The position numbers and the translations under genes were made by a program. The notes below the pieces were generated by a model that saw only the letters and a program-made list of their open reading frames with translations, searched no databases and was not told the origin of the DNA. A stretch of 64,000 nt of DNA from Pseudomonadota bacterium (GTDB lineage Bacteria; Pseudomonadota; Alphaproteobacteria; Caulobacterales; Caulobacteraceae): the NCBI GenBank assembly GCA_020161365.1, contig JAIUNU010000007.1, forward strand, positions 186,853 to 250,852, in the 5' to 3' direction. Positions 19,971 through 25,483 of the stretch are shown here, one piece after another (position 1 is the stretch's first letter; each line of letters begins with the position of its first letter).

Positions 19971-20747
19971 CTACAGCAGCGGTTTGGACAGAGCGGACGC
20001 CTCGGCCTCACAGCGCTTGGGGTCGGGAGCGGGACCGGCGGCGCGCGCCGCATCGAGCTCGACCCGGGCTGCGGCGAGGTCCGCCTTGAAGGCGTCGGAC
20101 GACTTCAACGCCGCCAGCAGGTTCTCGGCGTTCATCTGGCCGGCCTCGACCGAGCTCATATTGTGAACGCCGCACACCACGCGGCTTTCGCCATAAGCCT
20201 TGGCGCGCGCCAGAATCGCCTCGCGGCGGTCGGGCGCCAGTTCGGCCAGGAGGAGACCCACGCTCCAGCCCCAGGTCGCATGGCCGGAGGGGTAATCCGG
20301 CGACAGCGCCAGCCCCAGGCTGCGCTTGACGCAGATCGGTCCTTCCTCGCGGAAATAGGGGCGGGGGCGGCGATACTTCAGCTTTGGTCCGGCGACCGCC
20401 GAGCGGACGTCGCGGCTCATGCGCAGCAGGGTGGCGGCCAGCTTGGGGTTGCGCTCGAACGACGGGGTGACGCCCAGGGCGCAGGCGTAGCCGTCGAGCA
20501 CCTTCTCCTCGACATTGTCCTCCTGGGCCAAAGACCAGCGCGGGGTGTCCTTCAGGACGCGGGTGGCGCGGAAGATCTCGCGGTCGCGCAGCGCGGCTTC
20601 GGACCCCTTGGGCGGCGGCGGCGGCAGGTGGTCGCGCGCGTCGAAGGCGCCCTTGGCCAGATAGCGGTTAGCGGGCGCATCGCCGCTCAACGTGGCGCAG
20701 CCGCTAAGCATCAGGGCGGCGGTGGTGACGAGCCAGACAGCGCGCAT
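19971..20747 (-). CDS. Class A (PAP2) non-specific acid phosphatase, lipoprotein
   Basis: LSGC lipobox, KLKYRRPRP, YPSGH, SRVVCGVH. Confidence 0.88.
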   Translation of the reverse strand: MRAVWLVTTAALMLSGCATLSGDAPANRYLAKGAFDARDHLPPPPPKGSEAALRDREIFRATRVLKDTPRWSLAQEDNVEEKVLDGYACALGVTPSFERNPKLAATLLRMSRDVRSAVAGPKLKYRRPRPYFREEGPICVKRSLGLALSPDYPSGHATWGWSVGLLLAELAPDRREAILARAKAYGESRVVCGVHNMSSVEAGQMNAENLLAALKSSDAFKADLAAARVELDAARAAGPAPDPKRCEAEASALSKPLL

Positions 20748-20748
20748 G

Positions 20749-20782
20749 AAAAAGGGTCCCCGAAATCACTTTCGGAGACCCT
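20749..20782 (-). terminator. Terminator downstream of the DHS-like gene
   Basis: 13-bp minus-strand stem (one G-U pair), GUGA tetraloop, UUUU tract. Confidence 0.7.
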
Positions 20783-20825
20783 GCATTTTCAAGTCCGGCC
20801 GATCAAGCCCGCCGGACCGTCAGCC

Positions 20826-21875
20826 TTACTTGCCGAACAGCTTGTTCCAGCGCGGCTTCTCGCGGCCTTCCCAGGCCTTGCGCCAGTAGGCGTCCGAGGC
20901 GATCAGCGGAACCACCGTGGTGGCTTCGGCGAACACCATCTGCTCATAGGTGGTCGAGACCTTGCCCCACGAGGCGGCTTCCTTGAGCGTCGACGACGAG
21001 CAGGCGCCGTCGCGCACGTCGGCCACCGTGATCTGGATGGCGTACTTGTGCATGTCGGCCTCGACGCCGAGGATCTCGGCGCAGACGACGGTGTCTTGGG
21101 CGAAGTTCTTCGGCACGCCGCCGCCGACCATGAACAGGCCCGTAGTGCCAGCGGCGATCTTGATGTCGGTCAGTTCGCGGAAGTCGGCGATCGCGTCCAG
21201 CATCAGGTAGGGCTTGCCGGCGGCGGCGCGCTCCTTCTGGTGCTTGACGAGGCCGAAGCCGGCCGAGCTGTCGACGAACGCCGGGCAGAAGATCGGCACG
21301 CCTTCTTCATAGGCGGTCTGGATCAGCGAGCCTTCCTTCTTGGCGTTGCCTTCCGCCAGCCACTTGCCCATCTCCCAGATGAATTCGCGCGAGGAATAGC
21401 CGCGCGGCTCCAGGCGGTTGGCGATCTCGAGGATCGTGTGGTCGCAGGCCTGCAGCTCTTCTTCGTCGATATAGGTGTCGTAGATGCGGTCGATGTAGTT
21501 GTCGCGCAGGACGTTGTCGTCGACCGGGCCGGCGGCCTGATAGTGCTTGAAGCCGAGGGCTTCGAAGAAGTCCATGTCGACGATGCTGGCGCCGGTGGCG
21601 ACCACGGCGTCGATCATGCCGTTCTTCACCATGTCGCGGTACACGTGCATGCAGCCGCCGGCCGAGGTCGAACCGGCCAGGATCAGCCAGGTCGAGCAGT
21701 CCTTGTCGGCCAGGGCCATGTTGAAGATGTCGGCCGCGCGGGCGGTGTCGCGCGAGCTGAACGACATCTTGCGCATCGAGTCGATGATCGGGCGGGCGTC
21801 GTACGACGTGATGTCGACGTGCTCGACGGTCTTCTGGAGCAGTTCGGCCTTGGTGTTCGGAACGGGAGCGTTCAT
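20826..21875 (-). CDS. Deoxyhypusine synthase-like protein (candidate homospermidine synthase)
   Basis: AGSTSAGG, DRIYD, PIFCPAFVDSSAG, GGGVPKNF, GACSSSTLKEAASWGK with the conserved Lys, EATTVVPL. Start at MNAPVP. Confidence 0.9.
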   Translation of the reverse strand: MNAPVPNTKAELLQKTVEHVDITSYDARPIIDSMRKMSFSSRDTARAADIFNMALADKDCSTWLILAGSTSAGGCMHVYRDMVKNGMIDAVVATGASIVDMDFFEALGFKHYQAAGPVDDNVLRDNYIDRIYDTYIDEEELQACDHTILEIANRLEPRGYSSREFIWEMGKWLAEGNAKKEGSLIQTAYEEGVPIFCPAFVDSSAGFGLVKHQKERAAAGKPYLMLDAIADFRELTDIKIAAGTTGLFMVGGGVPKNFAQDTVVCAEILGVEADMHKYAIQITVADVRDGACSSSTLKEAASWGKVSTTYEQMVFAEATTVVPLIASDAYWRKAWEGREKPRWNKLFGK

Positions 21876-21962
21876 CGCTTCGGTTTCCCTGACTTTGGAC
21901 GCCCGTCGTTGGAACAAGCTCTTCACCGGGACGGAGCGACCGGCGGGAGCGGAAAATACGAA

Positions 21963-21994
21963 CCGCGCTCGACGCTTCAAAACGTCGAGCGCGG
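21963..21994. terminator. Perfect 12-bp hairpin between the ODC and DHS-like genes
   Basis: CCGCGCTCGACG-8 nt-CGTCGAGCGCGG; only a weak U-tract on the minus strand. Confidence 0.45.
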
Positions 21995-22039
21995 CGCGCG
22001 GTTTAACTCAAAAACAGACTACTGACGAACCGTGTCGGA

Positions 22040-23299
22040 TCAGCGACGGCGCTTGCGCTTGCCGGCCGCGCCCTTGGGACGGGAGAAGCGGACGATCTTG
22101 CGCTCTTCCGTCTCCTGGCGGACGACCGGGATCGAACGCTTGGCCAGGCCGTACATCGAAGCCATCGGCGCATCCTGCACCTCGACGGTGTCGGTTTCGC
22201 CGAAGCCGTTGAAGCGCGTATTCATGGCGACGCCATAGGCGCCGAGCATGCCGATCTCGATATAGTCGCCTTCGTCGACGCTTTCCGGCAGGTAGAAGGG
22301 GCCGGGCATGTGGTCGACGCTGTCGCAGGTCGGGCCGTAGAAGCGGAACGGCTTGAGGCCTTCTTCCACAACTTCGCCGCTCTTGCGGTACAGCTTGACC
22401 GGGAACGGCCACTTCATGTGCGCGGCGTCGAACAGCGAGCCATACGAGCCGTCGTTCAGATAGAGCGCGTCGCCCTTCTTCAGCTCGACCTTGACCAGCA
22501 GCGACGAAGCCTCGGCCACCAGGGCGCGGCCGGGTTCGCACCAGAGCTCGGTGGTCTCGTGGACCATCATCTCGGCGAAGCCGCGGTCGATCGCCGCCAG
22601 ATACTCGGAGAGATCCGGCGGGACCATGCCCGGATAGATCGACGGGAAGCCGCCGCCCACGTCGACAACGTCGGCCAGCACGCCGGCGCGCACCAGAGCG
22701 CGGCTCGCCTGAGCCATCGCCGCCTGGAAGGCGGTCGGGCGCATGCACTGGCTGCCCACGTGGAAGCTGACGCCCATCAGGTCCTGGGTCGCGCGGCGCG
22801 CGGCCAGCAGCAGGGCCGGGGCGTTGTGCATCTCGACGCCGAACTTGCCCGACAGGCTGTAGGCCGCGCCCTCGGCCTGCACGCCCATGCGGACGATCAG
22901 GTTGAGGTCCTTGGCCTGGCCCGTGGCGTCCAGGATCTTGGCCAGCTCTTCGTGGGTGTCGAACGAGAAGGTCTTCACCCCGTGGTCGAAATAGGCGGCG
23001 GAGATCGCCGCCCGGCTCTTGACCGGGTGCATGAAGGCCATGCGCGAGCCCGGCGCCTCTTGGGCGACCAGCTCGACTTCGTTCAGCGATGCGACATCGA
23101 ACGACCGCACGCCGGACTTGGCCAGCTCACGGATCACCCACGGCGAAGGATTGGCCTTCACCGCGTAAAAGACATCGCCTTTAAATTCTGCCTGGAACCA
23201 GCGCGCCGCTACCGCCACCGCGTCCGGTCGCACCATGGCGACAGGACGTTCCGGCGACCGCTCGCGGACCAGGTCCAGGGGCGTATGGTACGTGTGCAA
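22040..23299 (-). CDS. Ornithine decarboxylase, fold-type III (alanine-racemase-like) PLP enzyme
   Basis: FYAVKANP (PLP Lys), SFHVGSQ, DVGGGF, EPGR, GPTCDS, GAY. Probable TTG start at 23299 with AGGGGG SD 9 nt upstream. Confidence 0.9.
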   Translation of the reverse strand: MHTYHTPLDLVRERSPERPVAMVRPDAVAVAARWFQAEFKGDVFYAVKANPSPWVIRELAKSGVRSFDVASLNEVELVAQEAPGSRMAFMHPVKSRAAISAAYFDHGVKTFSFDTHEELAKILDATGQAKDLNLIVRMGVQAEGAAYSLSGKFGVEMHNAPALLLAARRATQDLMGVSFHVGSQCMRPTAFQAAMAQASRALVRAGVLADVVDVGGGFPSIYPGMVPPDLSEYLAAIDRGFAEMMVHETTELWCEPGRALVAEASSLLVKVELKKGDALYLNDGSYGSLFDAAHMKWPFPVKLYRKSGEVVEEGLKPFRFYGPTCDSVDHMPGPFYLPESVDEGDYIEIGMLGAYGVAMNTRFNGFGETDTVEVQDAPMASMYGLAKRSIPVVRQETEERKIVRFSRPKGAAGKRKRRR

Positions 23300-23400
23300 T
23301 TCACGTAACCCCCTGTTGGAAGTTAAACCCAGGCCGGCGTTAGCAGCGCTTGTAGGACTTCGGGTCCGCCGGAACCGTGCGAAATAGGGGCATTGATCCG
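23300..23400 (-). promoter_or_regulatory. Probable alphaproteobacterial speF-type leader RNA upstream of ornithine decarboxylase
   Basis: Lies 5' of an alphaproteobacterial ODC. The sequence AUGCCCCUAUUUCGCACGGUUCCGGCGGACCCGAAGUC resembles my recollection of the Rfam speF leader; no covariance-model search was run. Confidence 0.55.
23340..23393 (-). CDS. Candidate 17-aa leader peptide MPLFRTVPADPKSYKRC
   Basis: ATG..TAA inside the ODC leader, 8 nt downstream of a -10-like CTTTACATC, ending 40 nt before the ODC start. Confidence 0.4.
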   Translation of the reverse strand: MPLFRTVPADPKSYKRC

Positions 23401-23566
23401 GGATGTAAAGACCCTTTTGCGGCCCCGTTTCGAGGCGAATTGATCCCGAGCGGTCCAGGCGCCCGCCGCCTGCGAGATTTCGTCGCGCCAAAGCGCTCCA
23501 CGCCGGAAACGCGGGGGCTTTCGCCGCCGTTTGGCCCCCGCCGCCGGCCGCATAAAACGGGCGGCT

Positions 23567-23584
23567 CTGTCACAAATTCGTTGC
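23567..23584 (+). promoter_or_regulatory. Possible Pho box (one strong half-site) upstream of phnC
   Basis: CTGTCAC-AAAT-TCGTTGC about 70 nt upstream of a phosphonate transporter. The second half is weak. Confidence 0.4.
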
Positions 23585-23651
23585 GTCCTGACCGCAAACC
23601 GGAGAACGCATTTCCCAACCCGTGAAACCACGTTAAGGATTCGCCCCGACC

Positions 23652-24446
23652 ATGACGTCGGACCCTGTTCTCTCGATCCGCGCCGCCTCGAAGACCTTCG
23701 GGTCTCGCCGCGCGCTGGACGCCGTCTCGCTCGATGTGAATCGGGGCGAGATGATCGCGCTCATTGGCCCCTCCGGGTCGGGCAAATCCACGCTCCTGCG
23801 CTCGATCGATGGTCTGCAGACCATCGACGAGGATGAAGGGACCATCACCGCATTCGCCGGTCCTGTGCAGGCGCGCGGGAAGGTCTCGGATCAGGTGCGA
23901 AAGGCCCGCGTTCGCATCGGCTTCGTGGCCCAGCAATTCAATCTGGTCGGCCGGCTGTCGCTGTTCAGCAACGTGGCCCTGGGCTCGCTCGGGCGGATCT
24001 CGTTCCTTCGCGGTCTTTTTGGCTGGTGGCCGCAGGAAACGCGCGACGCGGCCATGGCGGCCCTCCATCGCGTGGGCGTCTCGGACTACGCCGGCCAGCG
24101 CGCCAACACCCTGTCGGGCGGTCAACAGCAGCGGGGCGCCATCGCCCGCGCGCTGGTTCAGCGCGCCAAGATCATCCTGGCCGACGAGCCGGTCGCCTCG
24201 CTGGATCCGGTGTCGGCGCGCAAGGTCATGGAGATCCTTCGTGACCTGAATCAAAGCGACGGTCTCACCGTCGTCGTCACACTACACCAGGTGGACTACG
24301 CCCTGCGCTACTGCGACCGGGTCGTGGCCCTGAAGGCCGGCCAGAAGGTCTATGACGGCCCGGCCTCCGGTCTGAAGCGTGAAAAACTCATCGATATCTA
24401 CGGCCCGGAATTCGAGGACGTGTTCTGGGAAGGAGCTCCCCAATGA
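23652..24446 (+). CDS. phnC: Phosphonate ABC transporter ATP-binding protein
   Basis: GPSGSGKST, QQFNLVGRL, LSGGQQQR, ADEPVASLDP. Confidence 0.92.
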   Translation: MTSDPVLSIRAASKTFGSRRALDAVSLDVNRGEMIALIGPSGSGKSTLLRSIDGLQTIDEDEGTITAFAGPVQARGKVSDQVRKARVRIGFVAQQFNLVGRLSLFSNVALGSLGRISFLRGLFGWWPQETRDAAMAALHRVGVSDYAGQRANTLSGGQQQRGAIARALVQRAKIILADEPVASLDPVSARKVMEILRDLNQSDGLTVVVTLHQVDYALRYCDRVVALKAGQKVYDGPASGLKREKLIDIYGPEFEDVFWEGAPQ

Positions 24447-25483
24447 TCAGCCGTCGTTCGGCTCTCGTCATCGCCGCCCGTTGTTCGCTTGTCGGCTTCT
24501 CGGCCCTGGCGCTCGTGTCTTGCTCGGGCAAGTCCGAAGCGCCTGCGGCCAAGAACGAGGTGACCTTCTCCATCCTGTCGACCGAGTCGGCCCAGAACAT
24601 GGAGAGCTACTGGACGCCGATCCTGAAGGACATGGAGAAGCAGACCGGCCTCAAGGTGAAGCCGTTCTTCTCGTCCAACTACTCGTCGCTGATCGTGGCC
24701 ATGGGCGCCAAGCAGACCGACCTGGGCTGGTTCTCGAACCAGTCGGGCTTGGAAGCGGTGCGCCGCTCGAACGGCGAGGTCTTCGCCCGGACGTTCGATC
24801 CGTCGGGCACGGACGGCTACAAGTCGGTGATCATCGTCCCGGCCGCCAGCAAGATCCAGACGATCCAGGACCTGCTGAAGTGCGACAAGACCCTGAACTT
24901 CGGCATCGGCGACAAGAAGTCGACCTCGGGCACCCTGGCGCCGATGACCTACGTGTTCATCCCGGCCAACAAGAAGCCCGAAGAATGCTTCAAGACGGTG
25001 ATCAGCGCCAACCATCAAGCCAACCTGTTCGCGGTGGCTAACGGCAAGCTGGACGCCTCGACGAACAACTCCACGGCCATCAACCTTTCGAGGGCGCGCG
25101 GCGAAGGCGTGACCGACAAGATCCGCGTGATCTGGGAGTCGCCGACCCTGCCGGAGGATCCGATCGTGTGGCGCAAGGACCTCGACCCGGTCGTGAAGGA
25201 AAAGCTGCGTCAGTTCTTCCTCACCTACGCCCAAGGCGATACGCCCGAGGCCGAGCAGCAGCGCGGCTATCTGAAGAAGCTGTCGATCGGCGGCTTCAAG
25301 CCGGCCGATGACACCCATCTGCTGGTGGTGCGCGAGATGGAGGCCACGGAACAGCTGGGCATCGCTCGCGAGTCGGGCGACCAGGCCAAGATCGCCGCCG
25401 CCCAGAAGGTCCTCGACGGCGTCAAGGCCGAGCGCGTGGCCGCCGAAGGCAAGGCGGGCGTCGTCGCTCAGCCGGCCAACTGA
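24443..25483 (+). CDS. phnD: Phosphonate ABC transporter substrate-binding protein
   Basis: Lipoprotein-like signal (LVSC), GYKSVIIV, STSG, HQAN, IWESP. Confidence 0.9.
   Translation: MISRRSALVIAARCSLVGFSALALVSCSGKSEAPAAKNEVTFSILSTESAQNMESYWTPILKDMEKQTGLKVKPFFSSNYSSLIVAMGAKQTDLGWFSNQSGLEAVRRSNGEVFARTFDPSGTDGYKSVIIVPAASKIQTIQDLLKCDKTLNFGIGDKKSTSGTLAPMTYVFIPANKKPEECFKTVISANHQANLFAVANGKLDASTNNSTAINLSRARGEGVTDKIRVIWESPTLPEDPIVWRKDLDPVVKEKLRQFFLTYAQGDTPEAEQQRGYLKKLSIGGFKPADDTHLLVVREMEATEQLGIARESGDQAKIAAAQKVLDGVKAERVAAEGKAGVVAQPAN

What the first reader, a model, noticed from the sequence alone, without database searches (positions are those of the whole stretch)
20826..23299. ODC plus DHS-like pair: candidate HSS-independent homospermidine route
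Seen: a fold-III ornithine decarboxylase followed by a DHS homologue that keeps the EAxSWGK Lys but reads GGGVPKNF where eukaryotic DHS has GGGVVKHH. Known: bacteria lack eIF5A, and DHS homologues make homospermidine in plants and in Anabaena. Inference: putrescine from ODC feeds this enzyme, giving homospermidine or modifying an unknown protein substrate.
Basis: partly seen in the sequence, partly recalled or inferred. Interest (0 to 1): 0.55.

Follow-up and report, generated by a model that had tools for sequence, protein, structure and literature searches.

The report
Agmatine-based homospermidine genes in Caulobacter

Summary
On the minus strand, an alanine-racemase-fold (fold III) ornithine decarboxylase homologue (22040-23299, 419 aa, TTG start) is followed by a deoxyhypusine-synthase homologue (20826-21875, 349 aa) that carries GGGVPKNF and EAASWGK.

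The genome, a Caulobacter at 100% completeness, has no canonical hss, so the route is HSS-independent. [quoted passage not shown] Every SpeY tested so far couples two agmatines, not putrescine (Sci Rep 2024; JBC 2026).

The genome has no other arginine decarboxylase of any known fold and no agmatinase. It does have an AguA/AguB-like pair about 139 kb away on the same contig.

The "ODC" belongs to a clade that holds all 14 SpeY-linked decarboxylases in a sample of 251 alphaproteobacterial genomes. That clade includes Pelagibacterales proteins whose congeners are arginine-only enzymes. It is therefore most likely a neofunctionalised arginine decarboxylase.

SpeY was found in 80 of 81 Caulobacteraceae genomes sampled. 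This is a known pathway in a family that the papers do not name. Interest is low.

The parts
22040..23299 (-). Alanine-racemase-fold (fold III) PLP decarboxylase, an ODC homologue of 419 aa with a TTG start. Predicted to be an arginine decarboxylase that supplies agmatine.
   Evidence: Pfam PF02784 and PF00278. Database homologues of 419 aa match at 100% coverage. All catalytic residues of human ODC align. The protein sits in the clade that holds all SpeY-linked decarboxylases. Apart from LysA it is the only AR-fold decarboxylase in the genome.
23309..23314 (-). Shine-Dalgarno AGGGGG, 9 nt upstream of the TTG start of the decarboxylase.
   Evidence: Read from the sequence. The same CAGGGGGTTnCGTG context before a TTG start is seen in two other genera, G061 and G208.
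20826..21875 (-). speY: a deoxyhypusine-synthase homologue of 349 aa, predicted to be diagmatine (G44G, caldomycin) synthase. Catalytic Lys is K305.
   Evidence: PF01916 at 300.4 bits. NF002699 equivalog at 567.8 bits, above its cut-off of 500, while every DHS equivalog falls below its cut-off. Residue mapping. It is the single copy in the genome.
21962..21995 (-). G+C-rich hairpin with a 15-bp stem between the two genes. It is terminator-like and lineage-specific.
   Evidence: Found by the terminator scan. The fold is -33 kcal/mol with z = -5.0. It lies in a roughly 65-nt insertion that is absent from the G061 intergenic region.
20753..20782 (-). Terminator-like hairpin followed by a T run, 44 nt after the speY stop. 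It marks the end of the two-gene unit.
   Evidence: Terminator scan. The next gene downstream is an unrelated PAP2-family gene.

Best explanation
The pair forms the first two steps of the agmatine-dependent (SpeY, 'diagmatine') pathway to homospermidine.

Step 1 (inferred): the ODC homologue at 22040-23299 decarboxylates L-arginine to agmatine. It is an ornithine decarboxylase that has been neofunctionalised to an arginine decarboxylase.

Step 2 (inferred from orthology to tested enzymes): SpeY at 20826-21875 uses bound NAD and Lys305. It oxidises one agmatine, carries its 4-guanidinobutyl group as an enzyme-imine, and transfers it to the amino group of a second agmatine. The product is N1,N9-bis(guanidino)homospermidine (G44G, caldomycin).

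Steps 3-4 (inferred): an AguA-like iminohydrolase and an AguB-like amidase remove the two guanidino caps via bis(carbamoyl)homospermidine, giving sym-homospermidine. These two genes lie about 139 kb away on the same contig (G000:C7:48162-49954).

Putrescine is not an intermediate. The genome lacks hss, speA, speB, speD and speE. No other known polyamine route was found, so homospermidine made this way is probably the cell's only triamine.
For: SpeY identity:
- NF002699 equivalog at 567.8 bits, cut-off 500. All DHS equivalogs fall below their cut-offs.
- Among 14 control genomes, only Thermus thermophilus and Caulobacter vibrioides pass that cut-off.
- K305, W303 and E299 are kept. D243 reads F and D316 reads C, the same two sites that differ in Thermus CdmS (F204, L286; PMC10981699 section 9). 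These residues are the same in all 14 alphaproteobacterial SpeYs, except one M at the D243 site.
- All tested SpeYs make G44G, including two from alphaproteobacteria with an upstream ODC homologue (Rhizorhabdus wittichii, Ca. Fonsibacter ubiquis) (PMC13625781).

Genome logic, at 100% completeness:
- One PAD_porph gene is directly followed by an aguB equivalog at 446.7 bits, cut-off 410.
- There is no arginase-family gene and no HSS.
- There is no SpeA, no AAT-fold decarboxylase, no pyruvoyl ADC and no AdoMetDC-type ADC.
- There is no spermidine synthase.

Comparative evidence:
- In 12 of the 13 other SpeY genomes in a 251-genome class sample, the ODC homologue sits directly upstream of speY.
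- Seven genomes have dec-speY-speB-like clusters and one has dec-speY-AIH-aguB.
- All 14 SpeY genomes have either an AIH or an arginase-family gene.
- All 14 SpeY-linked decarboxylases fall in one clade (SH-aLRT 94). Its sister clade lies next to speB and/or hss, and the ~377-aa hss-adjacent ODC type is far away.
- The SpeY clade contains Pelagibacterales proteins that are 64-71% identical to Fonsibacter sp. and Pelagibacter sp. proteins. Tested proteins from those genera are arginine-only (PMC9992855).
- The AIH homologues of all seven AIH-bearing SpeY genomes form one clade (SH-aLRT 96) apart from 49 others. This fits the G44G-specific iminohydrolase of R. wittichii.
Against: - No enzyme from Caulobacter or from this family has been assayed.
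- The substrate-contacting residues of ODC (K69, D332, C360 and D361 equivalents) are all kept, so the sequence gives no direct sign of arginine specificity.
- I could not place the exact tested proteins (R. salexigens, R. globiformis, F. ubiquis, B. abortus) in my tree by accession. The anchors are congeners and gene context.
- The AguA/AguB-like pair is not linked to speY in this genome. It could also serve catabolism of imported agmatine.
- A strong hairpin between the two genes may uncouple their transcription.
- One sampled genome (G205) has both SpeY and HSS, so the published 'mutual exclusivity' is not absolute.
Confidence: 0.8

Rival explanations
1. One reading: the decarboxylase is a true ODC, and the DHS homologue condenses two putrescines (or putrescine plus spermidine) directly to homospermidine, as plant HSS and eukaryotic DHS can.
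For: All ODC active-site residues are kept, and databases call the protein ornithine decarboxylase. The DHS-like protein keeps the catalytic Lys and the NAD-type glycine motif.
Against: - The genome has no spermidine pathway to supply an aminobutyl donor.
- Purified Thermus SpeY did not use putrescine or spermidine. All SpeYs tested needed agmatine, and eukaryotic DHS and HSS made no G44G (PMC10981699, PMC13625781).
- The two Asp residues that human DHS has in its spermidine-binding site read F and C.
- This reading leaves the SpeY-specific AIH clade and aguB without a substrate source.
- The decarboxylase is 31-36% identical to the hss-adjacent ODC type and lies in a different clade.
Confidence: 0.06
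2. The decarboxylase is bifunctional and acts on both arginine and ornithine. The cell would then make putrescine as well as agmatine, and SpeY would still use agmatine.
For: The ODC-type substrate pocket residues are retained. No other route to putrescine is visible in the genome.
Against: All four SpeY- or speB-linked ODC homologues assayed so far had no detectable ornithine activity (Pelagibacter, Fonsibacter, R. salexigens, R. globiformis; PMC9992855, PMC13625781).
Confidence: 0.1
3. The DHS homologue modifies a lysine of an unknown protein, a hypusine-like modification.
For: It shares the fold and the catalytic Lys with DHS.
Against: - No eIF5A domain is found in the genome.
- The DHS equivalog models score far below their cut-offs.
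- H288 is replaced, along with D243 and D316, which lie in the spermidine-binding site.
- Orthologues have a demonstrated small-molecule activity.
- The gene is tightly clustered with small-molecule polyamine enzymes across the class.
Confidence: 0.01

Closest known systems
[quoted passage not shown] Thermus thermophilus TTHA1570; SpeY of Anabaena, Rhizorhabdus wittichii and Ca. Fonsibacter ubiquis.
   Same: - Same Pfam domain, and it passes the NCBIfam equivalog cut-off.
- The catalytic Lys is kept, and both Asp sites of DHS are replaced by non-acidic residues.
- An ODC homologue lies directly upstream, as in R. wittichii and Fonsibacter.
- AIH and NCPAH homologues are encoded elsewhere in the genome, exactly the R. 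wittichii layout (PMC13625781).
   Different: - The host family, Caulobacteraceae, is not named in the papers I read.
- Cys, not Leu, sits at the D316 site.
- A lineage-specific hairpin lies between the decarboxylase gene and speY.
- No biochemical data exist for this protein.
ODC homologues neofunctionalised to arginine decarboxylase (Ca. Pelagibacter ubique, Ca. Fonsibacter ubiquis, Rhodothalassium salexigens, Rhodopila globiformis).
   Same: AR fold, about 390-445 aa, directly upstream of speY. It shares a phylogenetic clade with Pelagibacterales representatives, and no other ADC is present in the genome.
   Different: It is only 42-43% identical to the Pelagibacterales proteins. Its specificity has not been assayed, and no published residue signature exists against which to check it.
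Eukaryotic/archaeal deoxyhypusine synthase and plant DHS-derived homospermidine synthase.
   Same: Same fold, same NAD-dependent chemistry through a lysine-imine intermediate, and the same SWGK motif.
   Different: - It uses agmatine rather than spermidine as donor.
- There is no eIF5A in the genome.
- V286, H288, H289, D243 and D316 read P, N, F, F and C.
- It scores below the DHS equivalog cut-offs.
Bacterial homospermidine synthase (HSS; PDB 4TVB family).
   Same: The same end product, sym-homospermidine.
   Different: HSS has an unrelated fold (saccharopine-dehydrogenase-like) and depends on putrescine. It is absent from this genome.

Membership tests
SpeY (G44G/diagmatine synthase, NCBIfam NF002699) | Deoxyhypusine-synthase (PF01916) domain over the whole protein | tested here: met
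   300.4 bits, covering residues 30-327 of 349.
SpeY (G44G/diagmatine synthase, NCBIfam NF002699) | Score above the curated equivalog cut-off, with rival DHS equivalogs below theirs | tested here: met
   567.8 bits against a cut-off of 500. The DHS models score 263.6 (cut-off 434), 213.5 (304) and 211.9 (364). Among the controls, only Thermus and Caulobacter vibrioides pass.
SpeY (G44G/diagmatine synthase, NCBIfam NF002699) | Catalytic lysine (human K329, CdmS K299) and the Glu proposed to bind the guanidino group (CdmS E293) | tested here: met
   K305 and E299 align with them and are invariant in 14 alphaproteobacterial SpeYs.
SpeY (G44G/diagmatine synthase, NCBIfam NF002699) | Non-acidic residues at the two Asp positions of the human DHS spermidine-binding site (D243, D316; F204 and L286 in CdmS) | tested here: met
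   F207 and C292. The 14 SpeYs read 13 F plus 1 M at the first site and 14 C at the second.
SpeY (G44G/diagmatine synthase, NCBIfam NF002699) | Genome also encodes an agmatine source and a G44G-decapping enzyme (ureohydrolase, or iminohydrolase plus amidase) | tested here: met
   An AguA-like plus AguB pair is present. The AguA-like protein lies in the SpeY-associated clade. The only candidate agmatine source is the adjacent decarboxylase.
SpeY (G44G/diagmatine synthase, NCBIfam NF002699) | Catalyses homocoupling of two agmatines to G44G | not testable with these tools
   This needs expression in E. coli lacking speB, or an in vitro assay with LC-MS.
ODC-derived arginine decarboxylase (alphaproteobacterial type) | AR-fold PLP decarboxylase with the PLP lysine and catalytic residues | tested here: met
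   PF02784 and PF00278. Equivalents of K69, H197, the GGG motif, E274, D332, C360 and D361 align with human ODC.
ODC-derived arginine decarboxylase (alphaproteobacterial type) | Phylogenetic placement with enzymes shown to be arginine-specific | tested here: inconclusive
   The protein falls in the 19-row clade with all SpeY-linked decarboxylases, including Pelagibacterales ones. Those are 64-71% identical to Fonsibacter sp. and Pelagibacter sp. proteins. The exact assayed accessions could not be retrieved, so the anchoring rests on genus, length and gene context.
ODC-derived arginine decarboxylase (alphaproteobacterial type) | Activity on L-arginine and none on L-ornithine | not testable with these tools
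   This needs the purified enzyme.
Deoxyhypusine synthase proper (hypusine pathway) | eIF5A/aIF5A substrate encoded; DHS equivalog score; H288, and the D243 and D316 of the spermidine-binding site | tested here: not met
   No PF01287 match in the genome. Scores are below every DHS cut-off. H288, D243 and D316 read N, F and C.
Bacterial HSS pathway | hss gene present | tested here: not met
   No match at E <= 1e-40 with an HSS query that finds 49 of 251 class genomes. The best PF03435 protein in the genome is a generic 377-aa dehydrogenase.

The most novel reading that the evidence does not exclude
In Caulobacteraceae the decarboxylase may have kept ornithine activity, and this SpeY may accept putrescine. 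That would be a third bacterial route to homospermidine: DHS-type and putrescine-fed. The unlinked AguA/AguB-like pair would then serve only agmatine scavenging.
Probability: 0.05. Interest if true: 0.55.

Novelty: already known. Interest (0 to 1): 0.15.

Why it matters
There is little here for discovery. The pathway, the gene order (ODC homologue then speY) and the unlinked AIH/NCPAH pair were described for alphaproteobacteria in 2023-2026, and NCBI's own model already names the SpeY.

Three practical points remain:
- The upstream gene is still annotated as 'ornithine decarboxylase' across Caulobacteraceae and is probably misnamed.
- The route appears to be the only polyamine pathway in this genome. 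It is present in 80 of 81 sampled genomes of the family and in the model organism C. vibrioides, which would be a convenient genetic system for studying it.
- These cells should contain homospermidine but little or no putrescine.

Tried and rejected
- I looked for a residue signature that would separate arginine- from ornithine-specific enzymes. The classical ODC pocket residues are all conserved. A group comparison gave only candidate markers, chiefly M90-H91 in xMHPxK against G-N in the hss-adjacent ODC clade. Their role is unknown, so I did not use them as evidence.\n- I tried to retrieve the exact assayed proteins by accession through cluster look-ups and a second homologue search. Only congeners were found (Ca. 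Fonsibacter sp., Ca. Pelagibacter sp.). The paper's supplement is not held.\n- Shaw et al. 2010 (JBC), which I recall first proposed DHS-based homospermidine synthesis in some alphaproteobacteria, is not held. That statement rests on memory only.\n- An Rfam scan of 20000-24500 found nothing credible, and no sigma-70-like promoter was found.\n- The representative search returned only unnamed homologues and was not used further.\n- I did not predict a structure, because the sequence-level mapping to human DHS and ODC was unambiguous.

Full report
**What is there**

The window is G+C-rich (about 0.64-0.75 in 2-kb windows). Earlier notes and my homologue search place it in Caulobacter; the closest named protein is from C. 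flavus at 94% identity.

Two genes lie on the minus strand.
- The upstream gene, 22040-23299, encodes a 419-aa alanine-racemase-fold PLP decarboxylase. It starts at TTG 23299, 9 nt after AGGGGG. Database proteins of exactly this length match end to end.
- The second gene begins 164 nt downstream. It runs 20826-21875 and encodes a 349-aa deoxyhypusine-synthase homologue.

GGGVPKNF is at residues 251-258 and EAASWGK at 299-305.

Flanking genes are unrelated. Downstream are PAP2, Fur-family and thioesterase genes. Upstream and divergent is a phosphonate-type ABC transporter. A terminator-like hairpin follows the second gene, and another lies between the two genes.

**What the DHS homologue is**

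[quoted passage not shown] All deoxyhypusine-synthase equivalogs score far below their cut-offs. Among 14 control genomes only Thermus thermophilus and Caulobacter vibrioides pass the cut-off; archaeal DHS proteins do not.

This enzyme (CdmS/SpeY) was characterised in Thermus. The purified protein consumed agmatine only, not putrescine or spermidine, and made a bis-guanidino homospermidine. A ureohydrolase then converts that product to homospermidine (PMC10981699).

Li et al. (JBC 2026, PMC13625781) showed the same for SpeYs from several phyla. These include two alphaproteobacteria whose speY lies directly behind an ODC homologue, Rhizorhabdus wittichii and Ca. Fonsibacter ubiquis. Eukaryotic DHS and bacterial HSS made none of this compound.

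Aligned to human DHS in native numbering, the window's protein keeps K329, W327 and E323. It has N at H288, F at D243 and C at D316. D243 and D316 are the two positions the Thermus authors singled out as different in CdmS (F204, L286). In all 14 alphaproteobacterial SpeYs that I collected, these positions read F (one M), C, N and K.

**Rest of the pathway in this genome**

The assembly is 4.43 Mb in 25 contigs and 100% complete. The searches gave the following.
- One agmatine-deiminase-family gene at C7:48162-49145, about 139 kb from the pair. It scores below the AguA equivalog cut-offs (257.6 against 381.8).
- Directly after it, an AguB equivalog (446.7 against 410) and then a GNAT acetyltransferase.
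- No arginase/agmatinase family member.
- No HSS. The best saccharopine-dehydrogenase-like protein is a generic 377-aa enzyme that does not hit PDB homospermidine synthases. A bona fide HSS query finds 49 of 251 class genomes but not this one.
- Only two AR-fold decarboxylases: LysA and the gene in the window.
- No AAT-fold, pyruvoyl or AdoMetDC-type decarboxylase.
- No spermidine synthase and no eIF5A domain.

So the agmatine-type downstream enzymes and the agmatine-dependent SpeY have one possible source of agmatine: the 'ODC'. This layout is the one described for R. wittichii: ODC homologue, then speY, with AIH and NCPAH elsewhere. In that organism the AIH homologue proved specific for G44G.

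**Comparative test**

I used an evenly drawn sample of 251 alphaproteobacterial genomes.

- SpeY passes its cut-off in 14 genomes, this one included.
- In 12 of the other 13, the ODC homologue lies directly upstream on the same strand.
- Seven have dec-speY-speB-like clusters, the arrangement reported for Rhodothalassium salexigens. One has dec-speY-AIH-aguB in a row. In another genus of the same family, the AIH-aguB pair lies 1-3 kb from speY.
- Every SpeY genome has either an AIH (7) or an arginase-family gene (7).
- Only one genome, G205, also has HSS.

A maximum-likelihood tree of 86 ODC homologues with a LysA outgroup shows three relevant groups.
- A distant clade of ~377-aa proteins, 16 of 17 adjacent to hss. 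By length and context this is the Brucella-type true ODC.
- A 10-row clade adjacent to hss and/or speB, including speB-dec-hss clusters of the Rhodopila globiformis type.
- Its sister, a 19-row clade (SH-aLRT 94; 97 for the two together) that contains all 14 SpeY-linked decarboxylases, including the window's.

That last clade includes Pelagibacterales proteins that are 64-71% identical to Ca. Fonsibacter sp. and Ca. Pelagibacter sp. proteins of 396 and 394 aa. These are the lengths of the two enzymes shown to act on arginine only (PMC9992855).

I could not retrieve the assayed accessions themselves, so this anchoring is by genus, length and context.

A tree of 57 AIH homologues places all seven from SpeY genomes, plus one other, in a single clade (SH-aLRT 96) apart from 49 AIHs from genomes without SpeY. 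This fits a dedicated G44G iminohydrolase.

**What remains inferred**

Nothing from Caulobacteraceae has been assayed. The ODC pocket residues (K69, D332, C360 and D361 equivalents) are all kept, so arginine specificity cannot be read from known determinants. The only consistent differences from the ODC clade, such as M90-H91 against G-N, have no known role.

The intergenic hairpin is -33 kcal/mol with z = -5.0 and is an insertion absent from a sister genus. It may attenuate transcription into speY.

**Verdict**

The proposed chemistry is most likely wrong: the route is arginine to agmatine to G44G to homospermidine, not ornithine to putrescine to homospermidine.

This is a published pathway, and SpeY is already captured by NCBI's annotation model. 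SpeY is present in 80 of 81 sampled Caulobacteraceae genomes across all 25 genera (the tally includes unpublished G272) and in C. vibrioides. The finding is therefore ordinary.

Three points have residual value. The decarboxylase is probably misannotated. This appears to be the genome's only polyamine route. Caulobacter would be a convenient model for testing it.

Noticed in passing
window 21962-21995 (-): A 15-bp G+C-rich hairpin (-33 kcal/mol, z = -5.0) with a weak T tail lies between the decarboxylase gene and speY. It sits in a roughly 65-nt insertion that the Caulobacteraceae genome G061 lacks. It could be an attenuator, or a REP-like insertion.
   Followed up: partly
window about 21900-21940 (-): Just upstream of the speY ribosome-binding site, the segment GTCGCTCCGTCCCGG...GACGGGCG is conserved between this genome and G061 and can pair (CCGTCC with GGACGG). 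It is a possible regulatory stem.
   Followed up: no
window 23297-23320 (-); L073, L074: The unusual TTG start of the decarboxylase, preceded by CAGGGGGTTnCGTG, is conserved in two other genera, G061 and G208. About 340 nt of untranslated leader lies between it and the divergent ABC-transporter gene.
   Followed up: partly
G000:C7:48162-50560 (L001:1387-3898), outside the window: The AguA-like and AguB-like genes are followed by a GNAT acetyltransferase and preceded by a TonB-dependent receptor. The GNAT has a faint hit to spermidine N1-acetyltransferase and might acetylate homospermidine.
   Followed up: no
G205 (L079 and G205:C7:21071-22408): One sampled alphaproteobacterium has a dec-speY-speB cluster and also a canonical hss at 56% identity to the query. 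This is an exception to the published mutual exclusivity of the two routes.
   Followed up: no
G130 (L077, L183): This genome has a decarboxylase and an AIH that both fall in the SpeY-associated clades, but no DHS-like gene was found. It may have lost speY recently, or it may use these enzymes for plain agmatine-to-putrescine conversion.
   Followed up: no
L084, L096, L098, L080 (G145, G093, G227, G154): Several hss clusters carry two different ODC homologues: speB, then a decarboxylase 48-51% identical to ours, then hss, then a ~377-aa decarboxylase at 33-36% (G154 lacks the adjacent speB). This suggests parallel arginine and ornithine feeds into putrescine for HSS.
   Followed up: partly
L081 (G097) and L088 (G021): speY in G097 is split by a stop or frameshift near residue 63. 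The decarboxylase in G021 changes frame near residue 335. These may be pseudogenes or assembly errors.
   Followed up: no
decarboxylase residues 90-91 (window about 23027-23032, -): All SpeY-linked and speB/hss-linked decarboxylases read M-H in the xMHPxK motif. The hss-adjacent ODC clade reads G-N and human ODC reads A-N. This is a candidate marker of the arginine-specific type, untested.
   Followed up: partly
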